From positions 38,641-102,640 of the IMG/VR virus record IMGVR_UViG_3300024308_000004: DNA of 64,000 nt. One strand, given 5' to 3'. This document shows, in pieces, positions 23,299-46,779 of this stretch. Position numbers and translations under genes: made by a program. The stretch comes from a virus (taxonomy: Duplodnaviria; Heunggongvirae; Uroviricota; Caudoviricetes). Numbering within the stretch: position 1 is the first letter of the stretch; each line of letters opens with the position of its first letter. The notes beneath the pieces were generated by a model. The model was not told the origin of the DNA, made no database searches, and saw nothing but the letters and a program-made list of their open reading frames with translations.

Positions 23299-23373
23299 AG
23301 GGCCGTAGCTGAGTGGTTTAGCTCTCGCCTTTTAAGCGAGTTGACGTGGGTTCGATCCCCACCGGCCCCACCA
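23299..23373 (+). tRNA. tRNA-Lys (anticodon TTT)
   Basis: Anticodon stem CTCGC/GCGAG with loop cTTTTaa. T-arm GTGGG-TTCGATC-CCCAC. 3' CCA encoded. Exact acceptor register uncertain. Confidence 0.7.
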
Positions 23374-23390
23374 ACATGAGTATCTTTAGG

Positions 23391-23466
23391 TGTGTGCGTT
23401 GACTGTATTGGTTCAGTCGCCTGATTGTGAGTCAGGAGCATGTGGGTTCAATTCCCATCGTACACC
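23391..23466 (+). tRNA. tRNA-His (anticodon GTG)
   Basis: Acceptor GTGTGCG/CGTACAC, D-stem GACT/AGTC, anticodon stem CCTGA/TCAGG with loop ttGTGag. T-arm GTGGG-TTCAATT-CCCAT. Position -1 is T, so no G-1 is encoded. C73. Confidence 0.7.
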
Positions 23467-23480
23467 CCTAAAGGTATTTA

Positions 23481-23568
23481 GGATAATTAGACGTTTAAGG
23501 AGAACGCCCCGGCTGTAACCCGGGTACCCTAACGGGTCCGCAAGGTTCGGTACCTTGATTATCCACCA
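23481..23568 (+). tRNA. tRNA-Tyr (anticodon GTA), class II with long variable arm
   Basis: Acceptor GGATAAT/ATTATCC plus A plus CCA. Anticodon stem CCCGG/CCGGG with loop ctGTAac. Variable-arm hairpin ACCC-taac-GGGT. T-arm CAAGG-TTCGGTA-CCTTG. Confidence 0.7.
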
Positions 23569-23692
23569 CATTGGACGTAAACGAAAAAGGCGTTATAGTA
23601 GGTAGAGTGCCGAGAACGCCTGAAAGACCCGAAGGTCTACGGACTAGTGAAGCTCTAGGCTCTACACGTCCAACCACACAGTAGGAGGTAAC

Positions 23693-23779
23693 ATGCTGAT
23701 CGTACAAGGCTTATTGTTCTTTGCCGTGATGCTCGCTGCCTTCTACGCCGTATGGAAAATCGGCACAACGAAAAAGTGA
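23693..23779 (+). CDS. Tiny hydrophobic peptide (28 aa) inside the tRNA island
   Basis: MLIVQGLLFFAVMLAAFYAVWKIGTTKK, preceded by an AGGAGG RBS. Confidence 0.2.
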   Translation: MLIVQGLLFFAVMLAAFYAVWKIGTTKK

Positions 23780-23859
23780 GGGGTCTTTATACCGTTAGGT
23801 GATTAGACTGTGGATACAAGTCGGGCTCTGTTGTTCACCCGAATCCTCACGAATGTTTA

Positions 23860-23936
23860 GGATTGTAAGCACAAGTGGTATATGCACCGGCCTGTTAAGC
23901 CGGGGACAGATGGTTCGAGTCCATCACAATCCGCCA
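23860..23936 (+). tRNA. tRNA-Asn (anticodon GTT)
   Basis: Acceptor GGATTGT/ACAATCC plus G plus CCA. Anticodon stem CCGGC/GCCGG with loop ctGTTaa. T-arm GATGG-TTCGAGT-CCATC. Confidence 0.7.
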
Positions 23937-24024
23937 GCCCGAATAGAGTCCGCATACAAAAACCGGGTAGCTCTCAATGGTTGTAGGTGACGATGGGTTT
24001 GTATAGGAACCTTCATGAATTCAT

Positions 24025-24101
24025 AGGCGCGTGGTGAAGTGGTCCAACACAGCAGACTTTGACTCTGCCATTCCTAGGTTCAAATCCTAGCGCGTCTGCC
24101 A
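24025..24101 (+). tRNA. tRNA-Gln (anticodon TTG)
   Basis: Acceptor AGGCGCG/CGCGTCT (one G-U pair) plus G plus CCA. Anticodon stem GCAGA/TCTGC with loop ctTTGac. T-arm CTAGG-TTCAAAT-CCTAG. Confidence 0.7.
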
Positions 24102-24120
24102 AACAACAAACGAGGACACT

Positions 24121-24393
24121 ATGAAAATCGGTGACATTGCAGCACACGGGCGTTACACTAACCGGATTGGTTTCGTTACTGCGGTCAACCACGCATCACA
24201 TGGTCCGATCAGTTCCTACGAAGTCGAGTGGCTGAACGGCTCGCAACAGGGCAAGCGGGATACGATTAGCGCATGGAACGTTGTTGACATGCAGGAAGCT
24301 CTGGAATCAGCGCGTGCCGAAGTCAACCGTCGTGAAAGCGACCTCATCAAGTGGTGTCACGCAGCAGCAATCGCAAAGATCGCCGTCAAGTAA
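24121..24393 (+). CDS. Hypothetical protein embedded in the tRNA island
   Basis: 90-aa ORF between tRNA-Gln and tRNA-Trp. Confidence 0.4.
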   Translation: MKIGDIAAHGRYTNRIGFVTAVNHASHGPISSYEVEWLNGSQQGKRDTISAWNVVDMQEALESARAEVNRRESDLIKWCHAAAIAKIAVK

Positions 24394-24397
24394 CAAA

Positions 24398-24473
24398 GTT
24401 TGGGTAGCTCAACAGGCAGAGCGCTGGTCTCCAAAACCAGAGGTTGTGAGTTCGACTCTCACCCCATTCGCCA
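24398..24473 (+). tRNA. tRNA-Trp (anticodon CCA), imperfect acceptor stem
   Basis: D-arm GCTC...GAGC. Anticodon stem CTGGT/ACCAG with loop ctCCAaa. T-arm GTGAG-TTCGACT-CTCAC. The acceptor GTTTGGG/CCCATTC has two U-U mismatches, so it may be a degenerate copy. Confidence 0.55.
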
Positions 24474-24563
24474 GTAAGAGCCGAAGTGAGAACTGGGGTA
24501 CGCCGCGAGGTCCCAGCGAGTCTGTTCCGACTATAAAAGTGTCTCACAAAGGCTCGATGTATC

Positions 24564-24639
24564 GCCGGTATAGCTCAGATGGTAGAGCAGCGCACTTGTA
24601 ATGCGCAGGTCCTGGGTTCGATGCCTAGTGCCGGCACCA
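24564..24639 (+). tRNA. tRNA-Thr (anticodon TGT)
   Basis: Clean cloverleaf. Acceptor GCCGGTA/TGCCGGC plus A plus CCA. D GCTC/GAGC. Anticodon stem GCGCA/TGCGC with loop ctTGTaa. T-arm CTGGG-TTCGATG-CCTAG. Confidence 0.85.
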
Positions 24640-24685
24640 CAAACCCGCTGTACGCCCCGGGGATAACGGGTGTACGACAAATTAC

Positions 24686-24762
24686 TGCGGGTTAGCTCAG
24701 TGGTTTAGAGCGTTCGGCTGATAACCGAGAGGTCGGGAGTTCAAATCTCTCACCCGCAACCA
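24686..24762 (+). tRNA. tRNA-Ile (anticodon GAT)
   Basis: Acceptor TGCGGGT/ACCCGCA plus A plus CCA. D GCTC/GAGC. Anticodon stem TTCGG/CCGAG with loop ctGATaa. T-arm GGGAG-TTCAAAT-CTCTC. Confidence 0.8.
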
Positions 24763-24896
24763 AAAGAGTCAGCGTGCGGGGTTCGAGACCCCGGTAGTCC
24801 GCGAGAGGGCTAAGTATTGCGGTACGACGTTGCACCTAAGTGACTATACTGGTATAGTCCGCTCCGGGGTCAGGCGTTATTGGCCTCATGTATTTA

Positions 24897-24973
24897 ACCG
24901 AGTGTAGCTCAATCTGGTGGAGCAACGCGTTTGGGGCGCGAAGGCTGGGAGTTCAAATCTCTCCGCTCGGACC
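24897..24973 (+). tRNA. tRNA-Pro (anticodon TGG)
   Basis: Acceptor CCGAGTG/CGCTCGG plus A plus CCA. D GCTC/GAGC. Anticodon stem CGCG/CGCG with loop ttTGGgg. T-arm GGGAG-TTCAAAT-CTCTC. Confidence 0.7.
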
Positions 24974-25170
24974 AAAAATGGAGGTGGTCTGCTAGGTGGA
25001 TTAGAAACCCATCGAGCATTGTTAGCCTCCAGATAAATGAGGTAGTTATTAGTAACGGCTGTAGGGCCGCCAACGTAAGACGCCTCAGATAAATAGGTGT
25101 TGAAACGGCCTTGTGTGGGCACTGTTCTGTTCCAACCTAGTTGCTAACAGTTCCAGACACCTAGATACAA

Positions 25171-25200
25171 AAAGGCCCCTCATTGAGGGGCCTTTTCTTT
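25171..25200. terminator. Bidirectional hairpin terminator AGGCCCCTC-att-GAGGGGCCT
   Basis: A runs precede and T runs follow the GC-rich stem. It closes the first tRNA block and also serves the convergent minus-strand ORF. Confidence 0.6.
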
Positions 25201-25364
25201 TACGAGCCTTGTGGCGGCTGTGCTTCCTGCAACTGCTGCACTTGGAACTCCAACATCTGAATACGACGAGACAGGTTAACAATCTGTGCCGGTGACGGGT
25301 CATCCCAGTTCGTCAGGGGTACAGCGTTGGGATCAAAGTCAAACGGTAAATCAGCCATCTCTAC
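25200..25364 (-). CDS. Possible minus-strand small protein (MADLPFDFDPN...)
   Basis: Internal ATG of minus ORF 25200-25421. Convergent with the bidirectional terminator. Acidic/Pro-rich N-terminus and Q-rich coiled C-terminus. Confidence 0.25.
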   Translation of the reverse strand, partial: VEMADLPFDFDPNAVPLTNWDDPSPAQIVNLSRRIQMLEFQVQQLQEAQPPQGS

Positions 25365-25421
25365 TACTCCTACTCCACGAATACAAGTGTCCATTGTCCC
25401 GCAAAAGTACATGCAGGTCAA

Positions 25422-25811
25422 ATGATTGCCACGTCATCCCTGTTCTATACTTGTCGCATGTTGATATACGCACGCACTCCAAAATCAAAACGCTACAAGC
25501 GTCCGGGCATGGGTGATGTAGCCAAGAAGTTACCCAAGCAGAAGTTCAAACCCAAAGCTGCGCCGAAAGAAACAAAGTTCCGCGCAGAAGGTACTGAAAA
25601 GTATCGCTCCAAGATTGACGAACACTTGGCGAATAACGAACCGGTCAACAAACAACCGTTACGTTATGAGGATGCAGACATGGCAGCACGCGAAGCGGAA
25701 GCGCAAAAAGAAATCAAGCGCAAGTCCGAATGCGTAGCGCCGGCATTCAACAAGGGAAATCTTACTTACATCGCTACCGAGGAACAAGCGAAGTGGGTAG
25801 GTAGAAAGTAA
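25422..25811 (+). CDS. Hypothetical basic (Lys-rich) protein
   Basis: ORF. Start uncertain, with alternative ATGs at 25458 and 25509. Confidence 0.35.
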   Translation: MIATSSLFYTCRMLIYARTPKSKRYKRPGMGDVAKKLPKQKFKPKAAPKETKFRAEGTEKYRSKIDEHLANNEPVNKQPLRYEDADMAAREAEAQKEIKRKSECVAPAFNKGNLTYIATEEQAKWVGRK

Positions 25812-25847
25812 CAAATCATCCGCAAAATCTCACTGAGGCTCGGTATA

Positions 25848-26111
25848 ATGCGTACCAACAAAGGCTTTACCCTCATCGAACTGATGATCGTGATGGCTAT
25901 TATTGGCATCCTGGCGTCGATCTTCTACCCCATGTGGCGTGATCGCAACCTGACGGACTATCAGCGCCAGCAAAAACGCGAAGCCCTGCAACGTGAGTAC
26001 GCCAACACAGGCGTCCGTTGCATCGGTGGTTACAAGTTTGCACAACCGGACTGGAACAATCCGCCCGTGCAGATCAAGGACAACACTGGTAACGGGATTC
26101 CGTGCCAGTAA
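25848..26111 (+). CDS. Type IVa prepilin-like protein
   Basis: N-terminus MRTNKG/FTLIELMIVMAIIGILASI: a short basic leader, then Gly-Phe and the conserved Glu5 hydrophobic helix. C-terminal Cys pair (C...C, ~28 aa apart) typical of the pilin disulfide D-region. The CGGTATAATG motif overlaps the start. Confidence 0.75.
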   Translation: MRTNKGFTLIELMIVMAIIGILASIFYPMWRDRNLTDYQRQQKREALQREYANTGVRCIGGYKFAQPDWNNPPVQIKDNTGNGIPCQ

Positions 26112-26225
26112 GTAAATGGTTAGAAGTGGTCGTCTAAACCTCCATGCAAGTCGGGAAGAGACTTGGGCTATTCGGATCAGGACACTGCCGTTTGAGGCAG
26201 AGATAATCTTCAACCAGATTTAAAC

Positions 26226-26310
26226 GGGCCGTTGGCGAAACAGGCATACGCAGCAGACTTAAAATCTGCCGGAGAAATCCATGAGGGTTCGATCCCCTCA
26301 CGGCCCACCA
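26226..26310 (+). tRNA. tRNA-Leu (anticodon TAA), class II
   Basis: Acceptor GGGCCGT/ACGGCCC plus A plus CCA (perfect). Anticodon stem GCAGA/TCTGC with loop ctTAAaa. Long variable arm. T-arm GAGGG-TTCGATC-CCCTC. Confidence 0.85.
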
Positions 26311-26326
26311 CTTTAGGAGATACACG

Positions 26327-26536
26327 ATGGACCTGTATGAAACGCTGGGCTTGAAGCGCCCAACCAAAGAAGAAATGGAAATGCACCACGTCGCAACGAT
26401 CGGCGACCTGGAAGTCAACGCGTCGGAACACCTGGTCAATGTCAAGTGCGACGGCGAAGTCATCCTGGCCATCATGCGCCACGATGGTGGCTTGCAGGAG
26501 CTGGTCGATGCCCTGCAATCGCAGGTCAAGCCGTGA
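26327..26536 (+). CDS. Hypothetical small protein
   Basis: 69-aa ORF with an AGGAG RBS. Confidence 0.35.
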   Translation: MDLYETLGLKRPTKEEMEMHHVATIGDLEVNASEHLVNVKCDGEVILAIMRHDGGLQELVDALQSQVKP

Positions 26537-26703
26537 CCAAGGAAGAGGGCGATCAGATTCGCCTAGCGTATGGCAAGGTACTGACATACGCGGACAAGGC
26601 GATGAAAACTCCACCAGGTGTGCATCGTCGGATCGCCTTGAACGAATACTCCAAGGCGAAGAATGAATTCCGGGCGTTGTTGCGATCCCTGGAAGGCAAG
26701 TAG
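26536..26703 (+). CDS. Hypothetical small protein
   Basis: GTG/ATG overlapping the upstream stop. Start uncertain; in-frame ORF from 26446. Confidence 0.3.
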   Translation, partial: TKEEGDQIRLAYGKVLTYADKAMKTPPGVHRRIALNEYSKAKNEFRALLRSLEGK

Positions 26704-26706
26704 GGA

Positions 26707-26779
26707 GTTCTAGTAGCTCAGTTGGTAGAGCAGCCGCCCTGTAAGCGGTGTGTCGGGGGTTCGAGTCCCTTCTAGTGTT
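26707..26779 (+). tRNA. tRNA, second Thr-like copy (anticodon TGT with atypical C33; no CCA)
   Basis: Acceptor GTTCTAG/CTAGTGT (one mismatch). D GCTC/GAGC. Anticodon stem GCCGC/GCGGT with loop ccTGTaa. T-arm GGGGG-TTCGAGT-CCCTT. Confidence 0.5.
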
Positions 26780-26946
26780 GACAAGGACACTTGTCATAGT
26801 AAACCCCGATCAGGATGATGCGTCCCTAGAAGACTTATTCATCCTTCTTAAGTAGGGTCAGATAGTTTAACGGCGAGAACGCCCTGCGAGCGCGGGGAAG
26901 TAGGGTTCGAGTCCCAGAAAACAGGTGTAATCACCTGGATCCGATC

Positions 26947-26985: not shown

Positions 26986-27080
26986 TCTAGGGCAGTGAAT
27001 TGTTCAATTAACACCGTGCGATTCTTAAACGCGCCGTGTAAATATTCTCTAAAATCACTGCACACAGACGAGAAAGTAAC

Positions 27081-28040
27081 ATGGATCATTTCAAGGACGT
27101 GAAGGTTGTTGATTCATCCGACACGAACGTTTCCAAGTATGTGTTTGACATGGGCTCGGCAGTCGCCGAAGCCGTACTGTATAAGTACGGAACCTATGAA
27201 GAACGTACCGTGATCTGTTGCTCCACCCAGTCAGGCTGCCCCATCGGTTGCCGTTTCTGCGGAGCCGGTGATGCGTTCGTTCGTAACCTGTCTGCGGAAG
27301 AAATCGTCGCGCAGGTGGATCATTTGTTCGCGGATCGCAACATCGATCCAACCCAGGTCAAGCGTGGACAGATCATGTTCATGTCCATGGGTGAACCGTT
27401 GCTGAACCTCAAGCAACTGATCCCGGCGATGGAGGTCCTGTACGCCAAGTACCCCAACTTCGCGTTGCTGATTTCGACCAGCGCTCCGCGAGTGGATTTC
27501 ACGCCGTTGTTCCGGGCAGCCGCGCTCATTCCGACCATTGGTTTGCAGTTCAGCGTCCACGAATCTACCGACGAGGCGCGTGACCGGCTGATCCCGTTCA
27601 AGAACAAGTACACCATCGCCGAGATTGCCATCCTCGGTGATATTTTCCACACCACTACGGGGCGTCAGGCGTTCTTCAACTACTGCGCCCATACGGACAA
27701 CACCGCGCAGGAAGATGCTGACCGCATCCACGCGCTGTTCAATCCTGCATCCTTCCAGGCAACGGTTTCGGTCATCTGCGAGCGGGATGAGTCCATCGCT
27801 GCTGCGAACGAACGACAGCGCGAACTTGCTACGGGATTCATGGGTAAGCTCTTGCAAAAGGGTTATTCCGTTCGCACATTCGACCCTGCTGGTCAGGACG
27901 ACATTGGAGGTGGCTGTGGTCAACTCTGGTTCGTGCAGGATTGGATGCGTCAACACCCTGATCTGGCCCGACCGTCCGTCGGTCGCGGGCTGCCCACTGT
28001 TCACACTCCACGAGCCATCGACGTAAAGGTGATCGAATGA
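27081..28040 (+). CDS. Radical SAM RNA methyltransferase, RlmN/Cfr family
   Basis: Family-specific signature ICCSTQSGCPIGCRFCGAG (CxSxQxGC-x3-C-x2-C) and FMSMGEPLLN (RlmN GMGEPLxN). At 319 aa it is shorter than bacterial RlmN. Confidence 0.8.
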   Translation: MDHFKDVKVVDSSDTNVSKYVFDMGSAVAEAVLYKYGTYEERTVICCSTQSGCPIGCRFCGAGDAFVRNLSAEEIVAQVDHLFADRNIDPTQVKRGQIMFMSMGEPLLNLKQLIPAMEVLYAKYPNFALLISTSAPRVDFTPLFRAAALIPTIGLQFSVHESTDEARDRLIPFKNKYTIAEIAILGDIFHTTTGRQAFFNYCAHTDNTAQEDADRIHALFNPASFQATVSVICERDESIAAANERQRELATGFMGKLLQKGYSVRTFDPAGQDDIGGGCGQLWFVQDWMRQHPDLARPSVGRGLPTVHTPRAIDVKVIE

Positions 28041-28315
28041 CCCAAGAAGTAGAGGTATCCGATGACAGCGAGCCAGCTGAAATCGAAGGCGAAATCCTTG
28101 AAGCGGACGACCTGACGTACTTCGTCTCCGGACCTTCGTGTGGCTTCATCGTCCAGGGCAAGCAATACATCAAGCCCATGACCATTGCGGCGTGCATGAT
28201 TAACGGCGACCCCGAGGAAGCATACACGCACCAGCAGGTCAAGTCCGTCGCAGTCGTTCCGCAACAGCCGTCAGTCCATCTGATGACCCGTCGCCACAAT
28301 ACCACCTTGCATTGA
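28037..28315 (+). CDS. Hypothetical acidic protein
   Basis: ORF overlapping the rlmN-like stop. Confidence 0.35.
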   Translation: MTQEVEVSDDSEPAEIEGEILEADDLTYFVSGPSCGFIVQGKQYIKPMTIAACMINGDPEEAYTHQQVKSVAVVPQQPSVHLMTRRHNTTLH

Positions 28316-28322
28316 GGCATTC

Positions 28323-28535
28323 ATGTTCGATCCCGCAATTACCGACCTTTACAAGCGCGCCCATGAACTGCGCAACGCCCAGCGGAACTACATCGCAGAC
28401 GGCACGCGCAACGAAATCCTGGGCCGAGAAGTCCACAACGCAGCCGAACGTCTCGATGCGGCGTTGCAAGTCGTAGAAGATGAAGGCTACATTGCGGAGA
28501 AGGATATCCGCGACGTGCGCCCGGTGACGCCGTAA
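28323..28535 (+). CDS. Hypothetical protein
   Basis: 70-aa ORF. Confidence 0.35.
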   Translation: MFDPAITDLYKRAHELRNAQRNYIADGTRNEILGREVHNAAERLDAALQVVEDEGYIAEKDIRDVRPVTP

Positions 28536-28708
28536 TGTGGGTCTTGATCCTGACCCTGGCGATGCGTGGTCAAGCTGTTACGGTAACCACGCAGGACGGC
28601 TTCGCGTCGCAGGAATCCTGCATGATCGCCGCGAAGGCATGGACGGAACAGGTTGAAAGGATGCCACTCAGCAATCTGCACCGACGCGCCCTTTGTGTCC
28701 GCAAGTAA
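28535..28708 (+). CDS. Small secreted/membrane-anchored protein (57 aa)
   Basis: MWVLILTLAMRGQA signal-like N-terminus. Under 60 aa, so not in the ORF track. Confidence 0.3.
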   Translation: MWVLILTLAMRGQAVTVTTQDGFASQESCMIAAKAWTEQVERMPLSNLHRRALCVRK

Positions 28709-28884
28709 GCCCGTTACTTAACGCTTCTAGGTCTTCACGAAACGCGTATACTAATCACATGTCGCAGCGATCTACATCCGCTGCGATAACAGAACCAAGC
28801 GTGATGGCTTGTGGTTGTCACAGAGGGTGACACTAATGACCGGGGTAGTGCCCGGGTACCCTTCGACTCTGGTGGGAAGCCAGA

Positions 28885-29006
28885 GACCATAAGAAGTTCT
28901 GCTGTCCAACACCCGCATTAACGTGATGCCGGTGTAAGCAAAGTCCTAGTCGATTACCTCCTAGTTGCCGAATAGGACGGACAGGGCAGCAGAACTTCTT
29001 ATGGTC
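28885..29006. repeat. Perfect 20-bp inverted repeat forming a ~120-nt stem-loop (GACCATAAGAAGTTCTGCTG ... CAGCAGAACTTCTTATGGTC)
   Basis: Arms at 28885-28904 and 28987-29006 in a 310-nt noncoding region. The 3' arm abuts the GAGGAG RBS of the gene starting at 29019. Confidence 0.6.
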
Positions 29007-29018
29007 GAGGAGATTCAC

Positions 29019-29216
29019 ATGTCTGCCAAAGAAGTAGAACTGCCGCGCGGGGATACGTTTGATTCCCAGATGCGCAGGTACACCTTCAGTGAGGGTCAGG
29101 TGCGTGATATCCTGACCATCTATACCCAGAAACAGCAGGATGAAATTGATCGCCTGCGTTCTGAGGTTGACGGTTTGAAAATGAGTATCGCCCTTGCTGA
29201 AATGGGCGATGAATAA
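29019..29216 (+). CDS. Hypothetical protein
   Basis: ATG at 29019 after a GAGGAG RBS (in-frame ORF from 28965). Confidence 0.4.
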   Translation: MSAKEVELPRGDTFDSQMRRYTFSEGQVRDILTIYTQKQQDEIDRLRSEVDGLKMSIALAEMGDE

Positions 29217-29241
29217 CCACAGACGTTGATGGAAAGAAATC

Positions 29242-29592
29242 ATGTCAAAGCCTGATGCGGCGTTGTTCGTTCTGGTAGGCAGGAAGCCGGCCTACAACAA
29301 GATTTTCTTGGCGCCAAAGTCCGCGTTGCAGTGGTGCTATAACGCGGACTACGGTGACCAGCCAATACCAAGGAACGTTCTTGGTGATCTGACACCGTTC
29401 CTGGACTCGGATTACGATGGCGATCCTGCAACGGACACGTTTGACATTACTCCGGGGTCTGCCGATAATGACGTAGCGCTGGCGTTGAGCCAAGTATGCC
29501 GCGCGTTCAAGAGTCCGATTGAAGCGATGGAATATGCGTTCGCGCATTACACCGTCAATTCGGCTGACTGCTACACGGGTCTGGAATATTGA
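29242..29592 (+). CDS. Hypothetical protein
   Basis: 116-aa ORF immediately upstream of the tmRNA gene. Confidence 0.5.
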   Translation: MSKPDAALFVLVGRKPAYNKIFLAPKSALQWCYNADYGDQPIPRNVLGDLTPFLDSDYDGDPATDTFDITPGSADNDVALALSQVCRAFKSPIEAMEYAFAHYTVNSADCYTGLEY

Positions 29593-29927
29593 CCTAGGTT
29601 TATGGTTGTATGACGTGAAGTGAAGGGTGCTTGGACGGTGGTTCAACTCCACCCAGGTCCACCACAAATCAGTCTTAGTCGAGGTGCCGGCGTTACTGGC
29701 TGAGACTGATTTGTAATGGGCCTGCCGGGTTTCGACAGGCGCAGATAGCAGAACCGACAACTAAGGGTAGGCACTCCTTGACGCACACGCGTCGATAGTC
29801 CACAATAAAACATAATCGCCAATGACGACATGTTTGTGGTGGCCCTCGCGGCCTGATCCACTGGGGTCTTGAACGACCTTATTACCCAATAGTTCACGAT
29901 AAGCCCGAGGTCCGCCTCGGGCTTTTT
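29593..29927 (+). ncRNA. ssrA: Circularly permuted (two-piece) tmRNA gene
   Basis: Acceptor piece ending ~29664 with T-arm GGTGG-TTCAACT-CCACC and CAGGTCC-A-CCA. Inter-piece hairpin 29665-29713. Coding piece starts at 29718 with GGGCCTGCCGGGTTTCGACAGG, so G3:U70 plus A73. Tag ORF 29818-29856 (ANDDMFVVALAA then stop). Terminator 29902-29927. Confidence 0.8.
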
Positions 29928-29987
29928 CGTTGTGCAGCATCCCATATTTAACCTAGATATAGTGATTGCACACACTGGAGAACGTCA

Positions 29988-31037: not shown

Positions 31038-31129
31038 GGGTACGTGACTGAGCTAGGCTTAAGGTGCCGGTCTTGAAAACCGATGACGGGGTGACTCGTC
31101 CGTGGGTTCAAATCCCACCGTACCCTCCA
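31038..31129 (+). tRNA. tRNA-Ser (anticodon TGA), class II
   Basis: Acceptor GGGTACG/CGTACCC plus T plus CCA (perfect). Anticodon stem CGGT/ACCG with loop ctTGAaa. Long variable arm. T-arm GTGGG-TTCAAAT-CCCAC. Confidence 0.85.
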
Positions 31130-31433: not shown

Positions 31434-31643
31434 ATGGCACAAGCATTCAAGTTCTTCGGCGCGATTCTGGTGGGCCTGTTGTGGCTCTACGCAATCGTGA
31501 TTGAACTCCCGCTGTTGCTCACCGCAGGTGGTCTCAGCTGGCTGTTAGGTGTTGCGCTGGTCGTCCTCAGCGTGACCGTCCCGGCCTTCATGGTCTGGAA
31601 GATTGTCAAGGGCAAAACCAAAACCACCTCCAACAAGGAATGA
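31434..31643 (+). CDS. Small membrane protein (two TM helices), possible partner of the SPFH protein
   Basis: FFGAILVGLLWLYAIVIELPLLL and LLGVALVVLSVTVPAFMVW hydrophobic segments. Ends 9 nt before the SPFH gene. Confidence 0.45.
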   Translation: MAQAFKFFGAILVGLLWLYAIVIELPLLLTAGGLSWLLGVALVVLSVTVPAFMVWKIVKGKTKTTSNKE

Positions 31644-31651
31644 TTCCAACC

Positions 31652-32500
31652 ATGAACAAGTTCATGCGCCTCGGCGCTCTGCTGGTACTGGCCCTGTCGG
31701 CTGTCGCCTGCTCCAAGGTCGAACCGGGTTACGTCGGCGTCCGCGTCAACAACTTCAACGAACGCGGCGTGTCCGGCGAAATCGTCCAGCCGGGCAAGTA
31801 CGTCTACAACGGCCCGGGCTACCAGCTGTATGAGTTCCCGACCTTCAAGCAGAACCACGTCTACAAGGACGACACTGCCATCTCGTTCGGCACTGTCGAA
31901 GGTCTGACCGTCACTGCTCCGATCGGCGTGTCGTACCGTGTCGAAGGCTCCCTGGCTCCGAAGCTGTTCCAGGACTACCGCAAGGGCGTCGATGAAATCA
32001 CTGCCGTCGACCTGCGGAACATCATCCAGAACTCCTTCGTCAACGTCGCCGGTACCCGCAAGATCGAGACCGTCTACGGCCAGGGCAAGAAGGACCTGAT
32101 CGATGAGGTCAAGAAGCAGGTGACCGCGCGTGTCAAGGTCTCGGGCCTGACCATCGATGACGTGTACTGGGCCGGCAATCCGCAGCTGCCGCAGTCGGTG
32201 ACCGCGAGCATCAACGCCAAGATCGCCGCGACGCAGATGGCTGAACAGCGCCAGAACGAGGTCGCCCAGGCAAAGGCCGAAGCTGAAAAGCAGGTCGCAA
32301 CCGCGCAGGGTGAAGCGGACTCTCGTCTGGCAGTCGCAAAGGCTGAAGCCGAAGCGATCAACATCAAGGGCGAAGCGCTGCGCAACAACGCCAACCTGGT
32401 CGATCTGACCATCGCAGAGAAGTGGGACGGCAAGCTGCCTGAGCAGTACCTGGGCGGTGGTGGAAACGACGGCAAGATCCTTCAGATCATGCGCAAGTAA
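31652..32500 (+). CDS. SPFH/band-7 (prohibitin/HflKC-like) domain lipoprotein
   Basis: Signal peptide with lipobox LSAVAC. An SPFH-like core followed by an Ala/Glu/Gln-rich coiled-coil (EQRQNEVAQAKAEAEKQVATAQGEADSRLAVAKAEAEAI). Confidence 0.7.
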   Translation: MNKFMRLGALLVLALSAVACSKVEPGYVGVRVNNFNERGVSGEIVQPGKYVYNGPGYQLYEFPTFKQNHVYKDDTAISFGTVEGLTVTAPIGVSYRVEGSLAPKLFQDYRKGVDEITAVDLRNIIQNSFVNVAGTRKIETVYGQGKKDLIDEVKKQVTARVKVSGLTIDDVYWAGNPQLPQSVTASINAKIAATQMAEQRQNEVAQAKAEAEKQVATAQGEADSRLAVAKAEAEAINIKGEALRNNANLVDLTIAEKWDGKLPEQYLGGGGNDGKILQIMRK

Positions 32501-34743: not shown

Positions 34744-35601
34744 TTGGGAAATCAAAACAGGCAGGGCATACAAGTGACCATCAAGATCACTCCAATCAGT
34801 GACACCCATCAGGAATTTGGCGAGTACGAAGCTGGGTTCGGTGAAGGCGACGTGTGCGTGCTGGCTGGTGACAACAACGTCGCCTTGCATCTGGCATCCA
34901 ACAACGAAATCATCCTGGCCCGTGACATGCTGGGTCGTGCGCAGCGCCAGATTGCGAAAGCATTGGAGACGCACGATCATGTGGTGATGATCGCTGGCAA
35001 CCACGAACACTACGCCGGGTTCTTCAATCTCACCCATCGGATCATGCGTGACAAACTGGGCTCCGAGCGCGTGCATATCCTGGACAAGGAAACCTGGCAC
35101 CATAAGGGCGTTGATTTCTACGGCGCTACCATGTGGACTGACATTGCCGGTGGTAATCGCAAGGCGATTGATCGTGTGCATCAGGGCATGATGGACTATC
35201 AGGAAATCTGGATGCACGATTCGTTCCAGTCCCCGCCTGAGCGCAAGCTGCATCCCTTGGACACCATTGAGGATCACTTGCAGGCCATGATTGCCTTGCA
35301 AGAAGCGCGCGAAGCAGCACGCGAGAATTCAAACCGTCTCGTGGTTGTCACGCATCATGCTCCAAGCCCTAAGTCATTGCTGCCCAAGTATCAAATAGGT
35401 GGCAAGTACGCCGCGCTGTCCCCTGCGTATTATTCTGATCTGGAACACGCAATGCCCGGTGTTGATCTGTGGATTCACGGTCACATGCACGACACGTTTG
35501 ACTACCGGGTGGGTGACACGCGTGTGGTTTGTAACCCATGTGGGATTCTGGGTCACAGGCTGAATCTCAGTTTCAATCCCAAACTTTCTATCGAGGTATA
35601 A
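34744..35601 (+). CDS. Calcineurin-like metallophosphoesterase
   Basis: Motifs PISDTHQ, VLAGDNN, IAGNHEHY, VVVTHHAP, WIHGHMHD. Start position uncertain. Confidence 0.6.
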   Translation: MGNQNRQGIQVTIKITPISDTHQEFGEYEAGFGEGDVCVLAGDNNVALHLASNNEIILARDMLGRAQRQIAKALETHDHVVMIAGNHEHYAGFFNLTHRIMRDKLGSERVHILDKETWHHKGVDFYGATMWTDIAGGNRKAIDRVHQGMMDYQEIWMHDSFQSPPERKLHPLDTIEDHLQAMIALQEAREAARENSNRLVVVTHHAPSPKSLLPKYQIGGKYAALSPAYYSDLEHAMPGVDLWIHGHMHDTFDYRVGDTRVVCNPCGILGHRLNLSFNPKLSIEV

Positions 35602-38782: not shown

Positions 38783-39940
38783 ATGTGTATCTCCGAACTG
38801 CATGGTGGCCGTATCAAGCTGTGGACTCCGATCCACGAGGTTGAATCGGCTGCCCTGGACCAACTCAAGAACATCGCCAACCTGCCGTGGATGTTCAAGC
38901 ATGTGGCAGCGATGCCGGATGTTCACTTCGGCAAGGGTGCGACCGTGGGCAGCGTCATCGCCATGCAAAACGCCGTGTCGCCTGCTGCGGTAGGTGTTGA
39001 CATTGGTTGTGGCATGGGTGCCGTGCTGACGAACCTGACTGCAAAAGACCTGCCGGAATCGCTGCGTGAAATCCGTGCGCAGATCGAACGGGACGTGCCG
39101 GTCGGCTTCAACCGTCATGATTCCGGTCTGACGTTGGGTGCCAAGTCTGTCATGCACACCTTCAAGGACCTGCGTGCGCCCGTATCCACCGTCGAAAAGA
39201 CGGCTCACTGTCAGATCGGTACGTTGGGTGGTGGTAACCACTTCATCGAAATCTGTCTGGACACTACCGACCGCGTGTGGGTGGTGTTGCATTCGGGTTC
39301 GCGCAACATCGGCAAGACGTTGGCTGAGCATCACATCGCCATCGCACGCAAGCTGATCCACAACGAGACCCTGCCGGACCGAGACCTGGCTGTGTTCCTG
39401 CGTGGCACCAAGGAGATAGATGATTATCGCCATGACCTGATGTGGGCGCAGCAGTACGCGTTTGAGAACCGCGCCCACATGAAGGAACTGGTGATGGCTG
39501 CGATCAAGCGGCATATTCCGCATCTGTCCGAAGTGGATTACATCGCGTGTCACCACAACTACGTGTCCGAAGAAACTCACTTCGGCGAAGACGTAATCGT
39601 GACCCGCAAAGGCGCGATTTATGCTGGTCGTGGCGTGTACGGGATCATCCCGGGTTCAATGGGCACCAAGTCGTACATCGTCCGTGGCCTGGGCAACGAG
39701 GAATCGTACTGCTCGGCATCACACGGCGCTGGTCGTCGCATGTCGCGTGGCGCCGCAAAGCGTGCGTTCACCAAGGAAGACCTGGCCGAGCAAACCCAGG
39801 GCGTTGAGTGCCGCAAGGATGAAGGTGTGATCGATGAAATCCCGGCAGCATACAAGGATATCGATCAGGTGATGGAGAACCAGAAGGACCTGGTCGAAGT
39901 CGTGGCTGAACTCAAACAGGTCATGTGCGTAAAGGGGTAA
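38783..39940 (+). CDS. rtcB: RtcB-family RNA 3'-phosphate/5'-OH ligase
   Basis: Signature HFGKGATVGSV, metal-binding C (DIGCGMG), GGGNHFIEI, HSGSRNIG, and an HHNY region containing the catalytic His. Confidence 0.85.
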   Translation: MCISELHGGRIKLWTPIHEVESAALDQLKNIANLPWMFKHVAAMPDVHFGKGATVGSVIAMQNAVSPAAVGVDIGCGMGAVLTNLTAKDLPESLREIRAQIERDVPVGFNRHDSGLTLGAKSVMHTFKDLRAPVSTVEKTAHCQIGTLGGGNHFIEICLDTTDRVWVVLHSGSRNIGKTLAEHHIAIARKLIHNETLPDRDLAVFLRGTKEIDDYRHDLMWAQQYAFENRAHMKELVMAAIKRHIPHLSEVDYIACHHNYVSEETHFGEDVIVTRKGAIYAGRGVYGIIPGSMGTKSYIVRGLGNEESYCSASHGAGRRMSRGAAKRAFTKEDLAEQTQGVECRKDEGVIDEIPAAYKDIDQVMENQKDLVEVVAELKQVMCVKG

Positions 39941-45303: not shown

Positions 45304-46779
45304 ATGTCCCTGTTTGAAGAACGTATTGCCTTCAAGCCGTTCCAGTATCCCTGGGCATACGAGGCTTGGCTGACTCAGCAAAAGATGCACTGGCTGCCGG
45401 AAGAAGTTCCGATGGCTGACGACGTGCAGGACTGGAAGAACAAACTGTCGCCCAACGAGCGCAATCTGGTTACCCATATCTTCCGGTTGTTTACACAGTC
45501 CGACGTGGAAGTTTCCAAGTCGTATCATATGGTCTACATGCCGCGCATCAAACCCATCGAACTCCAGATGATGCTGGCTTCCTTCCAGAACATGGAAACT
45601 ATCCACGCTGCGGCTTACTCGCACTTGCTGGATACGCTGGGCCTGCCTGAAACCGAGTACAACAAGTTCCTGGAATACCAGGCCATGAAGGACAAGTGGG
45701 AAACCTGGCAGAACTACATGGACCCGCAGACGGATGAAGAACTCGCCCTGTCGATGGCAGCGTTTGGTGGCTTCACCGAAGGCGCACAGTTGTTTGCATC
45801 CTTTGCCATGCTGTTGAATTTCCCGCGTCACAACAAGCTCAAGGGCATGGGTCAAATTATCACTTGGTCGGTTCGTGACGAAACGCTCCATTGTGAATCG
45901 GTAATCAAGTTATTCCACGCGCTGTTGGCTGAAAAACCCCATCTGAATACCCCGCGCCTGCGTGAACTGATCGAAACCCACGCTCGGCAGGTTGTTGAGC
46001 AGGAAGACCGGTTCATTGACCTGGCGTTTGAAATGGGCGATCAGGAAGATTTGACCGCAGAGGATATGAAGCAATACATGCGGTTCATTGTTGATCGCCG
46101 TTTGATCCAGCTGGGTTACAAGGGCATCTTCAAGGTCAAGGAAAACCCCCTCGACTGGATGGATACCATGCTGAACACCGTGGAACACGTCAACTTCTTT
46201 GAACAGCGTGGCACTGAGTACGCCAAGGCTGCGACGCAGGGCGAATGGGGCGATGTGTGGGACATGGTTGACAGCGTTGGTAGCGACGAGTGGGTGGTTT
46301 ACAGCAAGGACGGTTGTGGGTTGTGCGTTGAAGCCAAGCGTATGTTGGCTGATCGCGGTATTCACCCGACGGTAGTAGACCTGACCGATGATGCAGAACG
46401 CGCGGCGTTCTACGAGCGCACACCGGGCATTGACTACATGCCGTTCGTAACCAAGAACGGTCGTCCGATCGGTGGTTGCAACGAGCTGGATGAATTCCTG
46501 GCCGGCAATGAAACTTACCTGGAACTCAAGCCTGTATCTGAATGGGTGGTTTACAGCAAGACAGGCTGTCCGGGTTGCGTTGTAGCCAAGCGCCAACTTA
46601 CACAGATGGGCTTTGAGTACGAGGAAGTGGTCTGCGATGAAGAAGACACCCGCAAGGACCTGTACGCCAAGACCGGACTACGCACGATGCCTATCGTGAT
46701 GCACCGTGGTCATGTGGTTGGTTCCAGCAACGACCTGCGGAACTACCTTAATGCTCACCGTGAAGAACTGACCAAGTAA
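45304..46779 (+). CDS. nrdB: Ribonucleotide reductase small subunit NrdB fused to two C-terminal glutaredoxin-like domains
   Basis: Ferritin-like R2 core (~320 aa) followed by two ~80-aa repeats, each with VVYSK-x-GC-x-x-C (CGLC and CPGC) and a C-terminal glutaredoxin fold signature. Confidence 0.85.
   Translation: MSLFEERIAFKPFQYPWAYEAWLTQQKMHWLPEEVPMADDVQDWKNKLSPNERNLVTHIFRLFTQSDVEVSKSYHMVYMPRIKPIELQMMLASFQNMETIHAAAYSHLLDTLGLPETEYNKFLEYQAMKDKWETWQNYMDPQTDEELALSMAAFGGFTEGAQLFASFAMLLNFPRHNKLKGMGQIITWSVRDETLHCESVIKLFHALLAEKPHLNTPRLRELIETHARQVVEQEDRFIDLAFEMGDQEDLTAEDMKQYMRFIVDRRLIQLGYKGIFKVKENPLDWMDTMLNTVEHVNFFEQRGTEYAKAATQGEWGDVWDMVDSVGSDEWVVYSKDGCGLCVEAKRMLADRGIHPTVVDLTDDAERAAFYERTPGIDYMPFVTKNGRPIGGCNELDEFLAGNETYLELKPVSEWVVYSKTGCPGCVVAKRQLTQMGFEYEEVVCDEEDTRKDLYAKTGLRTMPIVMHRGHVVGSSNDLRNYLNAHREELTK

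What the first reader, a model, noticed from the sequence alone, without database searches (positions are those of the whole stretch)
27081..28040. Phage-encoded RlmN/Cfr-family radical SAM methyltransferase next to the tRNA island
The ORF carries the family-specific CxSxQxGC-x3-C-x2-C radical-SAM/substrate-Cys signature (ICCSTQSGCPIGCRFCGAG) and the GMGEPLxN motif (FMSMGEPLLN). It lacks roughly 50 N-terminal residues of bacterial RlmN. RlmN methylates C2 of A2503 in 23S rRNA and of A37 in several tRNAs. Cfr methylates C8 of A2503 and confers resistance to several ribosome-targeting antibiotic classes. A phage copy adjacent to its own tRNAs and tmRNA suggests modification of phage tRNAs or ribosome remodelling, for example to resist a host ribosome-targeting toxin.
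Basis: partly seen in the sequence, partly recalled or inferred. Interest (0 to 1): 0.6.

Follow-up and report, generated by a model that had tools for sequence, protein, structure and literature searches.

The report
Phage RlmN-like enzyme tied to NAD salvage
This phage gene encodes a shortened relative of the RNA-methylating enzymes RlmN and Cfr that keeps their catalytic chemistry but has lost their RNA-gripping parts, and its relatives elsewhere sit inside NAD-recycling gene clusters, so it probably does not methylate the ribosome as its database label says.

Summary
The ORF (27081-28040, +, 319 aa) and both quoted motifs are real, and the gene is under strong purifying selection (dN/dS about 0.08). 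Sequence and predicted fold place it in the RlmN/Cfr class A radical-SAM methylase superfamily. All five catalytic cysteines are present. It is not an RlmN or Cfr orthologue. It scores 112 bits against a 290-bit RlmN cutoff and about 80 against 530-550 for Cfr. It lacks the whole N-terminal RNA-binding domain, has replaced nearly all RNA-contact residues seen in the Cfr-rRNA structure, and is acidic. It belongs to a large, highly conserved clade of 280-320 aa proteins found mainly in large phages. Proximity to tRNA genes is not conserved: 6 of 75 viral loci have one within 2 kb. The recurrent neighbours are NAD-salvage genes. In phages these are NAMPT and NMNAT-Nudix, sometimes with this gene between them. 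In one locus the protein is fused to a Nudix domain beside NAMPT and NMNAT. In bacteria the neighbours are PncA, PncB, NadD, NadE and NrtR. This phage lineage carries no NAD genes; here the gene lies in a tRNA, tmRNA and RtcB region. The substrate is unproven. My best guess is an NAD-related adenine nucleotide; phage tRNA remains a serious rival.

The parts
27081..28040 (+). Gene for a 319-aa class A radical-SAM methylase of the RlmN/Cfr type that lacks the N-terminal domain.
   Evidence: ORF found. TIGR00048 E 2.7e-32, 112 bits. Foldseek top hits are RlmN 3rfa and 5hr7, 6fz6 and Cfr 9p0p. dN/dS about 0.08.
27216..27218 (+). Codon for Cys46, the counterpart of the crosslink-resolving cysteine (E. 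coli RlmN C118, Cfr C105).
   Evidence: Alignments A1 and A2, invariant in the clade. Role taken from the Cfr cryo-EM preprint PMC13001441.
27237..27260 (+). C53-x3-C57-x2-C60 motif that binds the [4Fe-4S] cluster and SAM.
   Evidence: Invariant across all 47 sequences of alignment A3. Translation checked.
27378..27407 (+). FMSMGEPLLN, the GEP motif of the RlmN/Cfr family.
   Evidence: Translation. G104 and N109 are invariant and E105 and P106 nearly invariant.
27906..27929 (+). GGGCGQLW loop. Cys279 (27915-27917) is the counterpart of the methyl-carrying cysteine (E. coli C355, Cfr C338).
   Evidence: Translation. Aligned to AACGQL of RlmN and Cfr.
23299..26780 (+). Context only: island of 11 tRNA genes directly upstream. 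tRNA-Gln(UUG) and tRNA-His(GUG) have A37.
   Evidence: ARAGORN and Rfam. Anticodon loops read. No functional link is shown.
29604..29856 (+). Context only: permuted tmRNA 1.5 kb downstream.
   Evidence: Rfam RF04321, 88 bits. ARAGORN places it at 29572-29947.
34744..35601 (+). Context only: calcineurin-like metallophosphoesterase. The same family lies just upstream of the radical-SAM gene in several other phages.
   Evidence: Pfam PF00149. Cluster 19 in viral loci.
38783..39940 (+). Context only: RtcB RNA ligase. RtcB lies 0.5-1.7 kb downstream of the radical-SAM gene in 6 other viral loci.
   Evidence: Pfam PF01139, 415 bits. tblastn 56% identity. Viral loci.

Best explanation
The gene encodes a catalytically complete member of a separate subfamily of class A radical-SAM C-methylases. 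The subfamily lacks the N-terminal domain and is carried mainly by phages and mobile elements. Shown here: the protein keeps the full RlmN/Cfr reaction apparatus. That comprises the [4Fe-4S]/SAM site C53/C57/C60, the methyl-carrier Cys279, the resolving Cys46, and E30, S132, S158 and H160. Inferred from the established RlmN/Cfr mechanism: one SAM methylates Cys279. A second SAM is cleaved to a 5'-deoxyadenosyl radical, which abstracts a hydrogen from the S-methyl group. The resulting methylene radical adds to an sp2 carbon of an adenine ring (C2 or C8), and Cys46 resolves the covalent intermediate. Shown here: the features RlmN and Cfr use to hold rRNA or tRNA are gone. Inferred from gene context: the substrate is most likely not 23S rRNA A2503. 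It is more likely an adenine nucleotide of the NAD+/ADP-ribose pool, such as NAD+, NaAD or ADP-ribose, or a molecule derived from it. On this reading the enzyme is an accessory to NAD+ salvage or reconstitution, which phages use against NAD-depleting immunity. In this phage lineage the gene stands alone, without phage NAD genes, among early genes for tRNAs, a tmRNA and RNA repair, and would act on the host pool. The exact substrate, the carbon methylated and the benefit to the phage are unknown.
For: Catalytic set and fold.

Loss of RNA-binding determinants. No RlmN_N domain is present. Cfr R184/R185 (E. coli R206/R207) become F/A/T and A/S. R327 (E. coli R344) becomes F267. S328 (E. coli K345) becomes D268. 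N288 becomes S230. The four serines that hold the phosphate of the 3'-neighbouring nucleotide (S103, S151, S153, S187) become V44, Q97, M99 and L130. These come, mapped on the contacts described. The clade has a median pI of 5.5 (n=117), whereas 9 of the 13 canonical-length relatives sampled lie at 8.4-9.3 and the other 4 at 6.2-7.1.

Viral gene context, 75 loci. NAMPT occurs in 14 loci. These are 14 separate 80%-identity clusters of the radical-SAM protein, with pairwise identity 49-76%. NAMPT is within 1 kb in 12 of the 14. NMNAT-Nudix occurs in 14 loci. Gene orders seen are NMNAT-Nudix/NAMPT/rSAM (for example L022 and L026), NMNAT-Nudix/rSAM/NAMPT (L033, L072, L089), and rSAM/Macro/NADAR (L034). 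Overall 26 of 75 loci carry an NAD or ADP-ribose gene. For comparison, NARP2 occurs in about 1.1% of sequenced phage genomes (Osterman et al. preprint).

Rosetta-stone fusion. P0136 in locus L094 is the radical-SAM protein fused to a C-terminal Nudix domain, followed directly by NAMPT and a stand-alone NMNAT.

Cellular genomes. 17 of 78 loci, spanning Saccharibacteria, Actinobacteria, Bacilli/Clostridia, Alphaproteobacteria, Muribaculaceae and Woesearchaeota, place the gene inside co-oriented PncA/PncB/NadD/NadE/NrtR/Nudix clusters. These proteins are 46-65% identical to the window protein.

Close relatives of the window protein (65-73% identity: L015, L022, L026, L028, L033) are among the NAD-linked loci.
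Against: Every characterised member of the superfamily methylates RNA, and no methylated NAD-type metabolite is known to me. Radical-SAM methylases are slow and costly, which suits macromolecular targets better than metabolite pools. The window phage and its complete relative ANB28 carry no NAD-salvage gene at all. Here the gene lies among tRNAs, a tmRNA, a phosphoesterase and RtcB. Most viral loci (49 of 75) show no NAD gene within 10 kb. KVP40 NARP2 works without this protein, so at best it is an accessory. My neighbourhood analysis used a crude ORF caller, the 80 best-matching loci rather than a random sample, and no formal genome-wide background. Contigs binned into MAGs may really be phage. 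A tyrosine at the position of Cfr Y97, which contacts the target adenosine, and one arginine (R195) are kept, so a nucleic-acid adenosine could still bind.
Confidence: 0.42

Rival explanations
1. It methylates tRNA, most likely A37 at C2. The targets would be the phage's own tRNAs or host tRNAs. A minimal RlmN core recognises the anticodon loop in a new way or with a partner protein, and the modification tunes decoding or protects tRNAs from anticodon nucleases.
For: Precedent from the superfamily: RlmN makes m2A37 in tRNA Arg, Asp, Gln, Glu and His. In the window the gene lies 300 bp from a tRNA island. 11 of the 12 phage tRNAs have A37. tRNA-Gln(UUG) has A37/C38 and tRNA-His(GUG) has A37, and both belong to classes modified by E. 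coli RlmN. RtcB, a tRNA-repair ligase, lies 0.5-1.7 kb downstream in 6 viral loci and 10.7 kb downstream here, with a phosphoesterase upstream. Some loci have large tRNA arrays within about 1 kb (L024 with 28 genes, L027 with 7).
Against: tRNA proximity is not conserved: 6 of 75 loci within 2 kb and 52 of 75 with none in about 10 kb. The N-terminal domain and nearly all RNA-backbone contacts are lost, including the pocket for the phosphate of the 3' neighbour. The protein is acidic. This model does not explain why the gene sits in NAD-salvage operons of bacteria with small genomes. Hosts already carry RlmN, a highly conserved enzyme.
Confidence: 0.3
2. It methylates 23S rRNA A2503 at C2 or C8, as RlmN or Cfr do. 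This would remodel ribosomes or give resistance to antibiotics or toxins aimed at the peptidyl-transferase centre.
For: Best HMM and PDB matches are RlmN and Cfr. JGI and RAST pipelines label homologues as 23S rRNA (adenine2503-C2)-methyltransferase.
Against: All equivalog cutoffs are failed. The domain that anchors Cfr to the H90/H91/H92 junction is absent, and the arginines that bind H90 are replaced. RlmN and Cfr act on naked 23S rRNA during assembly, so little substrate would be available during a lytic infection. The gene context does not support this role.
Confidence: 0.05
3. It C-methylates adenine in DNA or in a deoxynucleotide precursor, to evade restriction or other DNA-targeting immunity.
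For: The family is typical of large phages, which often modify their DNA. A distant relative, P0214, is fused to an HD/HD_assoc domain resembling dNTP triphosphohydrolases. The Nudix domain fused in P0136 is closest to MutT/NudI-type NTP pyrophosphohydrolases. QueE-like genes occur in 7 loci.
Against: C-methyladenine has not been reported in DNA, as far as I know. Two SAM per methyl group would be very costly for genome-wide modification. There is no linkage to polymerase, DpdA-like or other DNA-modification genes. P0214 lies in a different clade. Bacterial NAD operons are not explained.
Confidence: 0.07
4. The target is neither a nucleotide nor a nucleic acid. One possibility is C-methylation of an imidazole or pyridine ring, either in a protein of the NAD pathway or in the nicotinamide ring. 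Another is that the protein has lost methylase activity and serves a different Fe-S role.
For: The chemistry of the superfamily is radical addition to an electron-poor N-heterocycle, which in principle extends to pyridinium or imidazole rings (my inference). The clade has extra invariant residues not found in RlmN or Cfr: C202, C233 and the SVICExD motif.
Against: There is no precedent. Both catalytic cysteines and the residues assigned to the SAM sites in Cfr (E30, S132, S158, H160) are invariant or nearly so under strong purifying selection. That argues for retained RlmN-type catalysis. Tyr36 matches Cfr Tyr97, which contacts the target adenosine.
Confidence: 0.08

Closest known systems
RlmN (dual-specificity 23S rRNA m2A2503 / tRNA m2A37 methyltransferase; TIGR00048; PDB 3RF9, 3RFA, 5HR7)
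   Same: Same fold: Foldseek E 5.5e-19, TM about 0.7. Same CX3CX2C cluster motif, same pair of catalytic cysteines, same GEP motif and same CGQL loop. Best-scoring family model.
   Different: Only 25% identity and 112 bits against a 290-bit cutoff. No RlmN_N HhH2 domain. E. coli R206, R207, R344, K345 and R347 are replaced by non-basic residues. Acidic. Carried by phages and mobile elements and linked to NAD genes rather than vertically inherited.
Cfr (23S rRNA m8A2503 methyltransferase giving PhLOPSA resistance; NF000424, TIGR04432; PDB 9P0P)
   Same: 28% identity over residues 11-283, including AACGQLY aligned to GGGCGQLW. Tyr36 matches Cfr Tyr97 at the target adenosine.
   Different: 79-84 bits against cutoffs of 530-550. 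Lacks the N-terminal domain and the residues that bind H90 and the U-turn. Nothing indicates C8 specificity or a resistance function.
The small third subfamily of unknown function, and the viral members, noted by Kaminska et al. 2010 (NAR 38:1652; PMC2836569)
   Same: That paper reported Cfr/RlmN-family sequences from viruses and an extra small subfamily of unknown function. The clade described here probably corresponds to it or overlaps with it.
   Different: I could not check which sequences were in that subfamily. No domain loss, NAD context or function was described there.
NARP2, the phage NAD+ reconstitution pathway of NAMPT plus NMNAT (Osterman et al. preprint 10.1101/2024.02.11.579819)
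   Same: Relatives of this gene are co-oriented with phage NAMPT and NMNAT-Nudix, abut them, sometimes lie between them, and once are fused to a Nudix domain beside them.
   Different: NARP2 as defined and tested has two genes and works without a radical-SAM protein. The window phage has neither NAMPT nor NMNAT.

Membership tests
RlmN (TIGR00048 / PRK11194 equivalogs) | Score at or above the curated equivalog cutoff. | tested here: not met
   TIGR00048 scores 112.1 bits against 290. PRK11194 scores 79.9 against 633.
RlmN (TIGR00048 / PRK11194 equivalogs) | N-terminal HhH2 accessory domain (Pfam RlmN_N, PF21016) that binds RNA. | tested here: not met
   No Pfam hit. The alignment starts at model position 71 and at about E. 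coli residue 79. An in-frame stop lies 14 codons upstream of the ATG. A canonical-length relative, P0256, does hit PF21016.
RlmN (TIGR00048 / PRK11194 equivalogs) | Formation of m2A at 23S A2503 and at tRNA A37. | not testable with these tools
   Needs biochemistry or LC-MS.
Cfr (NF000424, TIGR04432, PRK14453) | Score at or above the curated cutoff. | tested here: not met
   83.8 against 530, 79.2 against 550, and 78.5 against 468.
Cfr (NF000424, TIGR04432, PRK14453) | Conservation of the rRNA-contact residues seen in the Cfr/87-mer complex. | tested here: not met
   All 6 listed N-terminal-domain contacts are absent. Only Y97 (Y36), R249 (R195) and the aromatic residue at Y252 (F198) are kept among the remaining contacts.
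Cfr (NF000424, TIGR04432, PRK14453) | C8 methylation of A2503 and resistance to several antibiotic classes. | not testable with these tools
   Needs MIC assays and primer extension or LC-MS.
Class A radical-SAM methylases (RlmN/Cfr superfamily) | CX3CX2C [4Fe-4S]/SAM motif in a partial TIM barrel. | tested here: met
   C53/C57/C60 are invariant. The model has pLDDT 92.5, and RlmN and Cfr lead the next fold class by 8 or more orders of magnitude in E-value.
Class A radical-SAM methylases (RlmN/Cfr superfamily) | Two further catalytic cysteines: a methyl carrier in the C-terminal CGQL loop and a resolving Cys 7 residues before the cluster motif. | tested here: met
   C279 and C46 align with E. 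coli C355 and C118 and with Cfr C338 and C105, and are invariant in the clade.
NAD-salvage-associated module (NARP2-like in phages; PncA/PncB/NadD/NadE/NrtR in bacteria) | Physical linkage of the gene to NAD-salvage genes. | tested here: inconclusive
   Met for relatives: 26 of 75 viral loci, 17 of 78 genomic loci and one fusion. Not met in this window or in the complete genome of the related phage ANB28.
Known anti-phage defence proteins (PADLOC, including prokaryotic viperins) | Match to any PADLOC model. | tested here: not met
   No hits at E <= 0.01.

The most novel reading that the evidence does not exclude
This clade is a third functional branch of the RlmN/Cfr superfamily that has left RNA. 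It would C-methylate the adenine, or conceivably the pyridinium ring, of NAD+ or a close relative such as NaAD or ADP-ribose. It would act as an unrecognised third component of NAD+ salvage in bacteria with small genomes, and of NARP2-type NAD+ reconstitution in phages. The product would be a previously unknown methylated dinucleotide, for example one that resists immune NADases or disturbs TIR-derived signalling.
Probability: 0.3. Interest if true: 0.85.

Novelty: new variant of a known kind. Interest (0 to 1): 0.6.

Why it matters
1. Annotation and safety. Stenotrophomonas phages of this type are candidates for therapy. One record labels this gene as ribosomal RNA large subunit methyltransferase N, and two others wrongly label it as a prohibitin family protein. 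A Cfr-like gene in a therapeutic phage would be a warning sign. The evidence here argues against a Cfr-type rRNA function, although an MIC test is still needed.

2. Enzymology. Class A radical-SAM methylases are known only from RNA. A highly conserved branch that has lost the RNA-binding apparatus and travels with NAD genes could reveal a new substrate class.

3. Conflict between phages and hosts. NAD+ depletion and reconstitution is a major battleground. A recurrent third gene in NARP2-like operons can be tested directly by knock-outs and metabolomics.

Tried and rejected
- Conserved downstream partner. The 92-aa ORF that overlaps the stop codon (28037-28315) has no similarity to the ORF in the same position in a T4-like relative and no Pfam hit. 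I rejected the idea of a two-gene module.
- tRNA adjacency as a family trait. Tested on 75 loci and not conserved.
- PHROGs gave only a partial hit to an unannotated family (phrog_24834, E 1.4e-12, residues 40-119). PADLOC gave nothing.
- Proteins P0122, P0123 and P0125 carry 80-110 extra N-terminal residues with no Pfam domain. My own long ORFs in GC-rich loci look like start over-extensions. The roughly 250-aa C-terminal extension in L159 has no Pfam match.
- Contexts of more distant short clades (P0174, P0179, P0141) were uninformative.
- The weak NMNAT-Nudix tblastn hit at window 46102-46734 lies inside the RNR-beta/glutaredoxin ORF, and I treated it as spurious.
- Literature. All ten searches found no paper that links a phage RlmN-like protein to a function, or that links a radical-SAM enzyme to NrtR or NAD-salvage operons. 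The RlmN-tRNA structure paper (Science 2016) is not held.
- The afdb50 fold library was unavailable.
- The neighbour-joining tree is crude, with no bootstrap and no maximum-likelihood analysis. I use it only to say that the clade does not nest inside RlmN or Cfr.
Full report
**1. The observation**

The window holds an ATG-initiated ORF at 27081-28040 on the + strand, 319 aa long. The quoted peptides are present at these positions:
- ICCSTQSGCPIGCRFCG at 27213-27263;
- FMSMGEPLLN at 27378-27407;
- GGGCGQLW at 27906-27929.

An in-frame TAA at 27039 rules out a hidden N-terminal extension. The gene is 88% identical in DNA and 93% identical in protein to genes in Stenotrophomonas phages ANB28 and BUCTxx99. 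It is 80% identical in protein to a gene in Xanthomonas phage JGB6. dN/dS is 0.076-0.082, so this is a functional gene under strong constraint.

Eleven tRNA genes lie at 23299-26780 and tRNA-Ser lies at 31038-31129. A permuted tmRNA lies at 29604-29856 and is confirmed by Rfam. The window is collinear with ANB28, a phage of about 108 kb with lambda-like tail genes.

**2. Family assignment**

- NCBIfam: the best hit is RlmN TIGR00048 (E 2.7e-32, 112 bits), followed by the Cfr models at about 80 bits. All are far below the curated cutoffs of 290 and 468-550 bits.
- Pfam: Radical_SAM scores 28.9 bits, just under its gathering score of 29.5. There is no RlmN_N hit.
- PDB sequence search: RlmN and Cfr match about equally, at E about 2e-18.
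- Structure: an AlphaFold model built on a 47-sequence alignment has mean pLDDT 92.5. Its best PDB matches are RlmN (3RFA, 5HR7), the Sphaerobacter homologue 6FZ6 and Cfr 9P0P, at E 5.5e-19 to 6.8e-14. The next fold class appears only at E 6e-06.
- Alignment with E. coli and Bacillus RlmN and with Cfr shows C46 = C118/C105, C53/C57/C60 = the cluster cysteines, and C279 = C355/C338. E30, S132, S158 and H160 are also conserved.

Neither is met. The protein belongs to the class A radical-SAM methylase superfamily.

**3. Why it is not an RlmN or Cfr orthologue**

About 65-75 N-terminal residues are missing, which is the entire HhH2 accessory domain. In the Cfr/87-mer cryo-EM structure this domain anchors the enzyme to the junction of H90, H91 and H92. 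[quoted passage not shown]

I mapped every residue listed as an RNA contact in that paper onto the alignment. These contacts are lost in the phage clade:
- the H90-binding arginines R184/R185 (E. coli R206/R207) become F/A/T and A/S;
- R327 (E. coli R344) becomes an invariant Phe;
- S328 (E. coli K345) becomes Asp or Asn;
- N288 becomes Ser;
- the four serines that hold the phosphate of the 3'-neighbouring nucleotide become Val, Gln, Met and Leu.

Only Tyr36 (Cfr Y97), Arg195 (Cfr R249) and an aromatic residue at Cfr Y252 survive.

The clade is acidic, with a median pI of 5.5 over 117 members. Of the 13 canonical-length relatives I sampled, 9 lie at pI 8.4-9.3 and the other 4 at 6.2-7.1. In a rough neighbour-joining tree the clade falls outside the branch that holds both RlmN and Cfr.

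**4. What the clade is**

More than 5,500 database proteins match the query. The best 120 are 69-93% identical and 307-356 aa long, almost all 307-321 aa. In the library clustered at 50% identity, full-length short proteins of 273-317 aa form a continuum from 66% down to about 30% identity. Canonical-length RlmN-like proteins appear only below about 105 bits.

The long contigs that carry these genes are T4-like or jumbo phages, with gp23, gp13 and gp15 genes. Cultured examples at about 50% identity include Salmonella phage Arash, several 137-kb Vibrio phages and Aeromonas phage Ahp1.

Among 185,579 species genomes only 86 loci matched. They are scattered across phyla at 45-71% identity, which is the signature of mobile DNA. 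Kaminska et al. (2010) had already noted viral members of the family and a small third subfamily of unknown function. I found no paper assigning a function to it.

**5. Gene context**

I called ORFs in 84 viral or phage loci (the radical-SAM ORF itself was recovered in 75) and in 78 genomic loci. I clustered them by BLASTP and annotated the recurrent clusters with Pfam.

No neighbour is universal, and the overlapping downstream ORF is not conserved. tRNA or tmRNA genes lie within 2 kb in 6 of 75 viral loci and anywhere in the fetched flanks in 23 of 75.

The most frequent neighbours are NAD genes.

In viral loci:
- NAMPT occurs in 14 loci and NMNAT-Nudix in 14.
- Macro occurs in 8 and NADAR in 7.
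- The 14 NAMPT loci carry radical-SAM proteins only 49-76% identical to each other.
- NAMPT is within 1 kb in 12 of the 14. If NAMPT were placed uniformly over the roughly 20 kb fetched, about 10% would be expected that close.
- Gene orders include NMNAT-Nudix/NAMPT/rSAM, NMNAT-Nudix/rSAM/NAMPT (L033, L072, L089) and rSAM/Macro/NADAR (L034).

In one metagenomic phage-like contig (L094) the radical-SAM protein is fused to a C-terminal Nudix domain. It is followed directly by NAMPT and a stand-alone NMNAT.

In cellular genomes 17 of 78 loci place the gene in co-oriented clusters of nicotinamidase (PncA), PncB, NadD, NadE, the ADP-ribose-sensing regulator NrtR and Nudix hydrolases. Examples are PncA-PncB-rSAM-NadE-x-NadD (L145), PncA-PncB-NadE-rSAM (L141) and PncA-rSAM-NrtR in the isolate Ornithinimicrobium murale (L123). 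Five Saccharibacteria loci show the same pattern, and four of them (L106, L108, L109, L122) also carry a gene I read as MetRS nearby.

Two different salvage routes, several phyla and both cells and phages thus converge on the same partner. For scale, NARP2 is reported in about 1.1% of sequenced phage genomes.

A second, smaller context is RNA repair. A metallophosphoesterase lies just upstream in four viral loci (L038, L039, L041, L049), and RtcB lies 0.5-1.7 kb downstream in six.

**6. This phage**

Neither the window nor the complete ANB28 genome contains any detectable NAMPT, NMNAT, PncA, PncB, NadD, NadE, NrtR, Macro, NADAR or Adps-like gene. Here the gene belongs to the RNA-flavoured context:
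- the tRNA island;
- the permuted tmRNA;
- a metallophosphoesterase at 34744-35601;
- RtcB at 38783-39940.

Eleven of the twelve phage tRNAs have A37. tRNA-Gln(UUG) (A37/C38) and tRNA-His(GUG) belong to classes that E. coli RlmN modifies, and a pyrimidine at position 38 favours RlmN. A tRNA role in this phage therefore cannot be excluded.

**7. Mechanism and weighing**

Shown: a complete RlmN-type catalytic apparatus under purifying selection, loss of the RlmN/Cfr RNA-recognition determinants, and family-wide linkage to NAD salvage.

Inferred: the enzyme still carries out the two-SAM, methyl-cysteine radical addition to an adenine sp2 carbon. Its substrate has changed, most plausibly to an adenine nucleotide of the NAD+/ADP-ribose pool. 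Loss of the pocket for the 3'-neighbour phosphate fits a non-polymeric substrate.

I put this at about 0.4. Against it stand four points: no methylated NAD-type metabolite is known, such enzymes are slow, most phage copies (this one included) have no NAD neighbours, and NARP2 works without this protein.

Confidence in the rival explanations:

| Explanation | Confidence |
|---|---|
| tRNA A37 methylation | about 0.3 |
| Cfr- or RlmN-like rRNA methylation | about 0.05 |
| DNA or dNTP adenine methylation | about 0.07 |
| Other chemistry or target | about 0.08 |

**8. Limits**

- ORF calling was naive, taking the longest ORFs from the first possible start.
- The loci are the best-matching 80 per collection, not a random sample.
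- There is no matched genome-wide background.
- MAG binning may mislabel phage contigs.
- The tree is distance-based and has no support values.
- I could not inspect model coordinates or electrostatics.
- Assignment of RNA contacts relies on one preprint and on a sequence alignment that is less certain in the C-terminal loop.

**9. Verdict**

The gene is a new variant of a known kind: a class A radical-SAM methylase without the N-terminal domain, mislabelled as RlmN or as prohibitin, with an unknown substrate. Its family-wide link to NAD salvage has not been described in the literature I could search, and it can be tested directly.

Noticed in passing
window 29604-29856 (+); ARAGORN 29572-29947: The phage encodes a permuted (two-piece type) tmRNA with tag peptide ANDDMFVVALAA (Rfam RF04321, 88 bits against a gathering score of 47). 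The surrounding segment, about 28522-29958, has no blastn counterpart in the related phage ANB28, which has an 'endonuclease VII' gene there. The tmRNA therefore lies in an indel. It is not annotated in the related GenBank records.
   Followed up: partly
window 25848-26111 (+): An 87-aa ORF inside the tRNA island begins with a prepilin-type N-terminal methylation motif (PF07963, 42.9 bits). It is a pilin-like protein encoded among phage early genes.
   Followed up: no
window 31640-32500 (+); GenBank OR529408, OQ436456: A true SPFH/Band-7 (prohibitin-like) gene lies 3.6 kb downstream. In the BUCTxx99 and JGB6 records the radical-SAM gene itself is labelled 'prohibitin family protein', which looks like an annotation transfer error.
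   Followed up: partly
window 34744-35601 and 38783-39940 (+): A metallophosphoesterase and an RtcB RNA ligase lie in the same early region as the tRNA island. This suggests a tRNA-repair capability against anticodon nucleases. The same pair flanks the radical-SAM gene closely in several metagenomic phages: L038, L039, L041 and L049.
   Followed up: partly
window 45304-46779 (+): The ribonucleotide reductase small subunit is fused to a C-terminal glutaredoxin domain. In ANB28 the RNR-beta gene is annotated as a shorter ORF.
   Followed up: no
L008 (Vibrio phage PS17B-2) 3233-5908: A gene annotated as 'ribose-phosphate pyrophosphokinase' next to one annotated as 'nicotinamide phosphoribosyl transferase' looks like a NARP1-type pair (Adps plus Namat). 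It lies directly upstream of the radical-SAM gene, so the association may extend to NARP1 as well as NARP2.
   Followed up: no
L112 (MAG labelled Methanobacterium), L117 and L143 (archaeal MAGs), L106-L109 and L122 (Saccharibacteria): Proteins 47-64% identical to the phage protein occur in contigs binned as archaea and CPR bacteria. Some may be mis-binned phage contigs. L112, for example, carries NAMPT and Macro like the phage loci. Four of the Saccharibacteria loci (L106, L108, L109, L122) look chromosomal, because a gene I read as MetRS (and in three of them one I read as TatD) lies nearby.
   Followed up: partly
protein P0214 (759 aa, metagenome): A more distant RlmN-like protein without the N-terminal domain is fused to an HD + HD_assoc module resembling dGTPase or dNTP triphosphohydrolase. 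This is a second independent fusion of this type of enzyme to a nucleotide hydrolase.
   Followed up: no
window protein residues C202 and C233 (FFNYC; SVICExD): Two further cysteines and an SVICExD motif are invariant in the close clade. The motif replaces the NLIPxNP motif of RlmN and Cfr. These features are variable in more distant short relatives, and their role is unknown.
   Followed up: no
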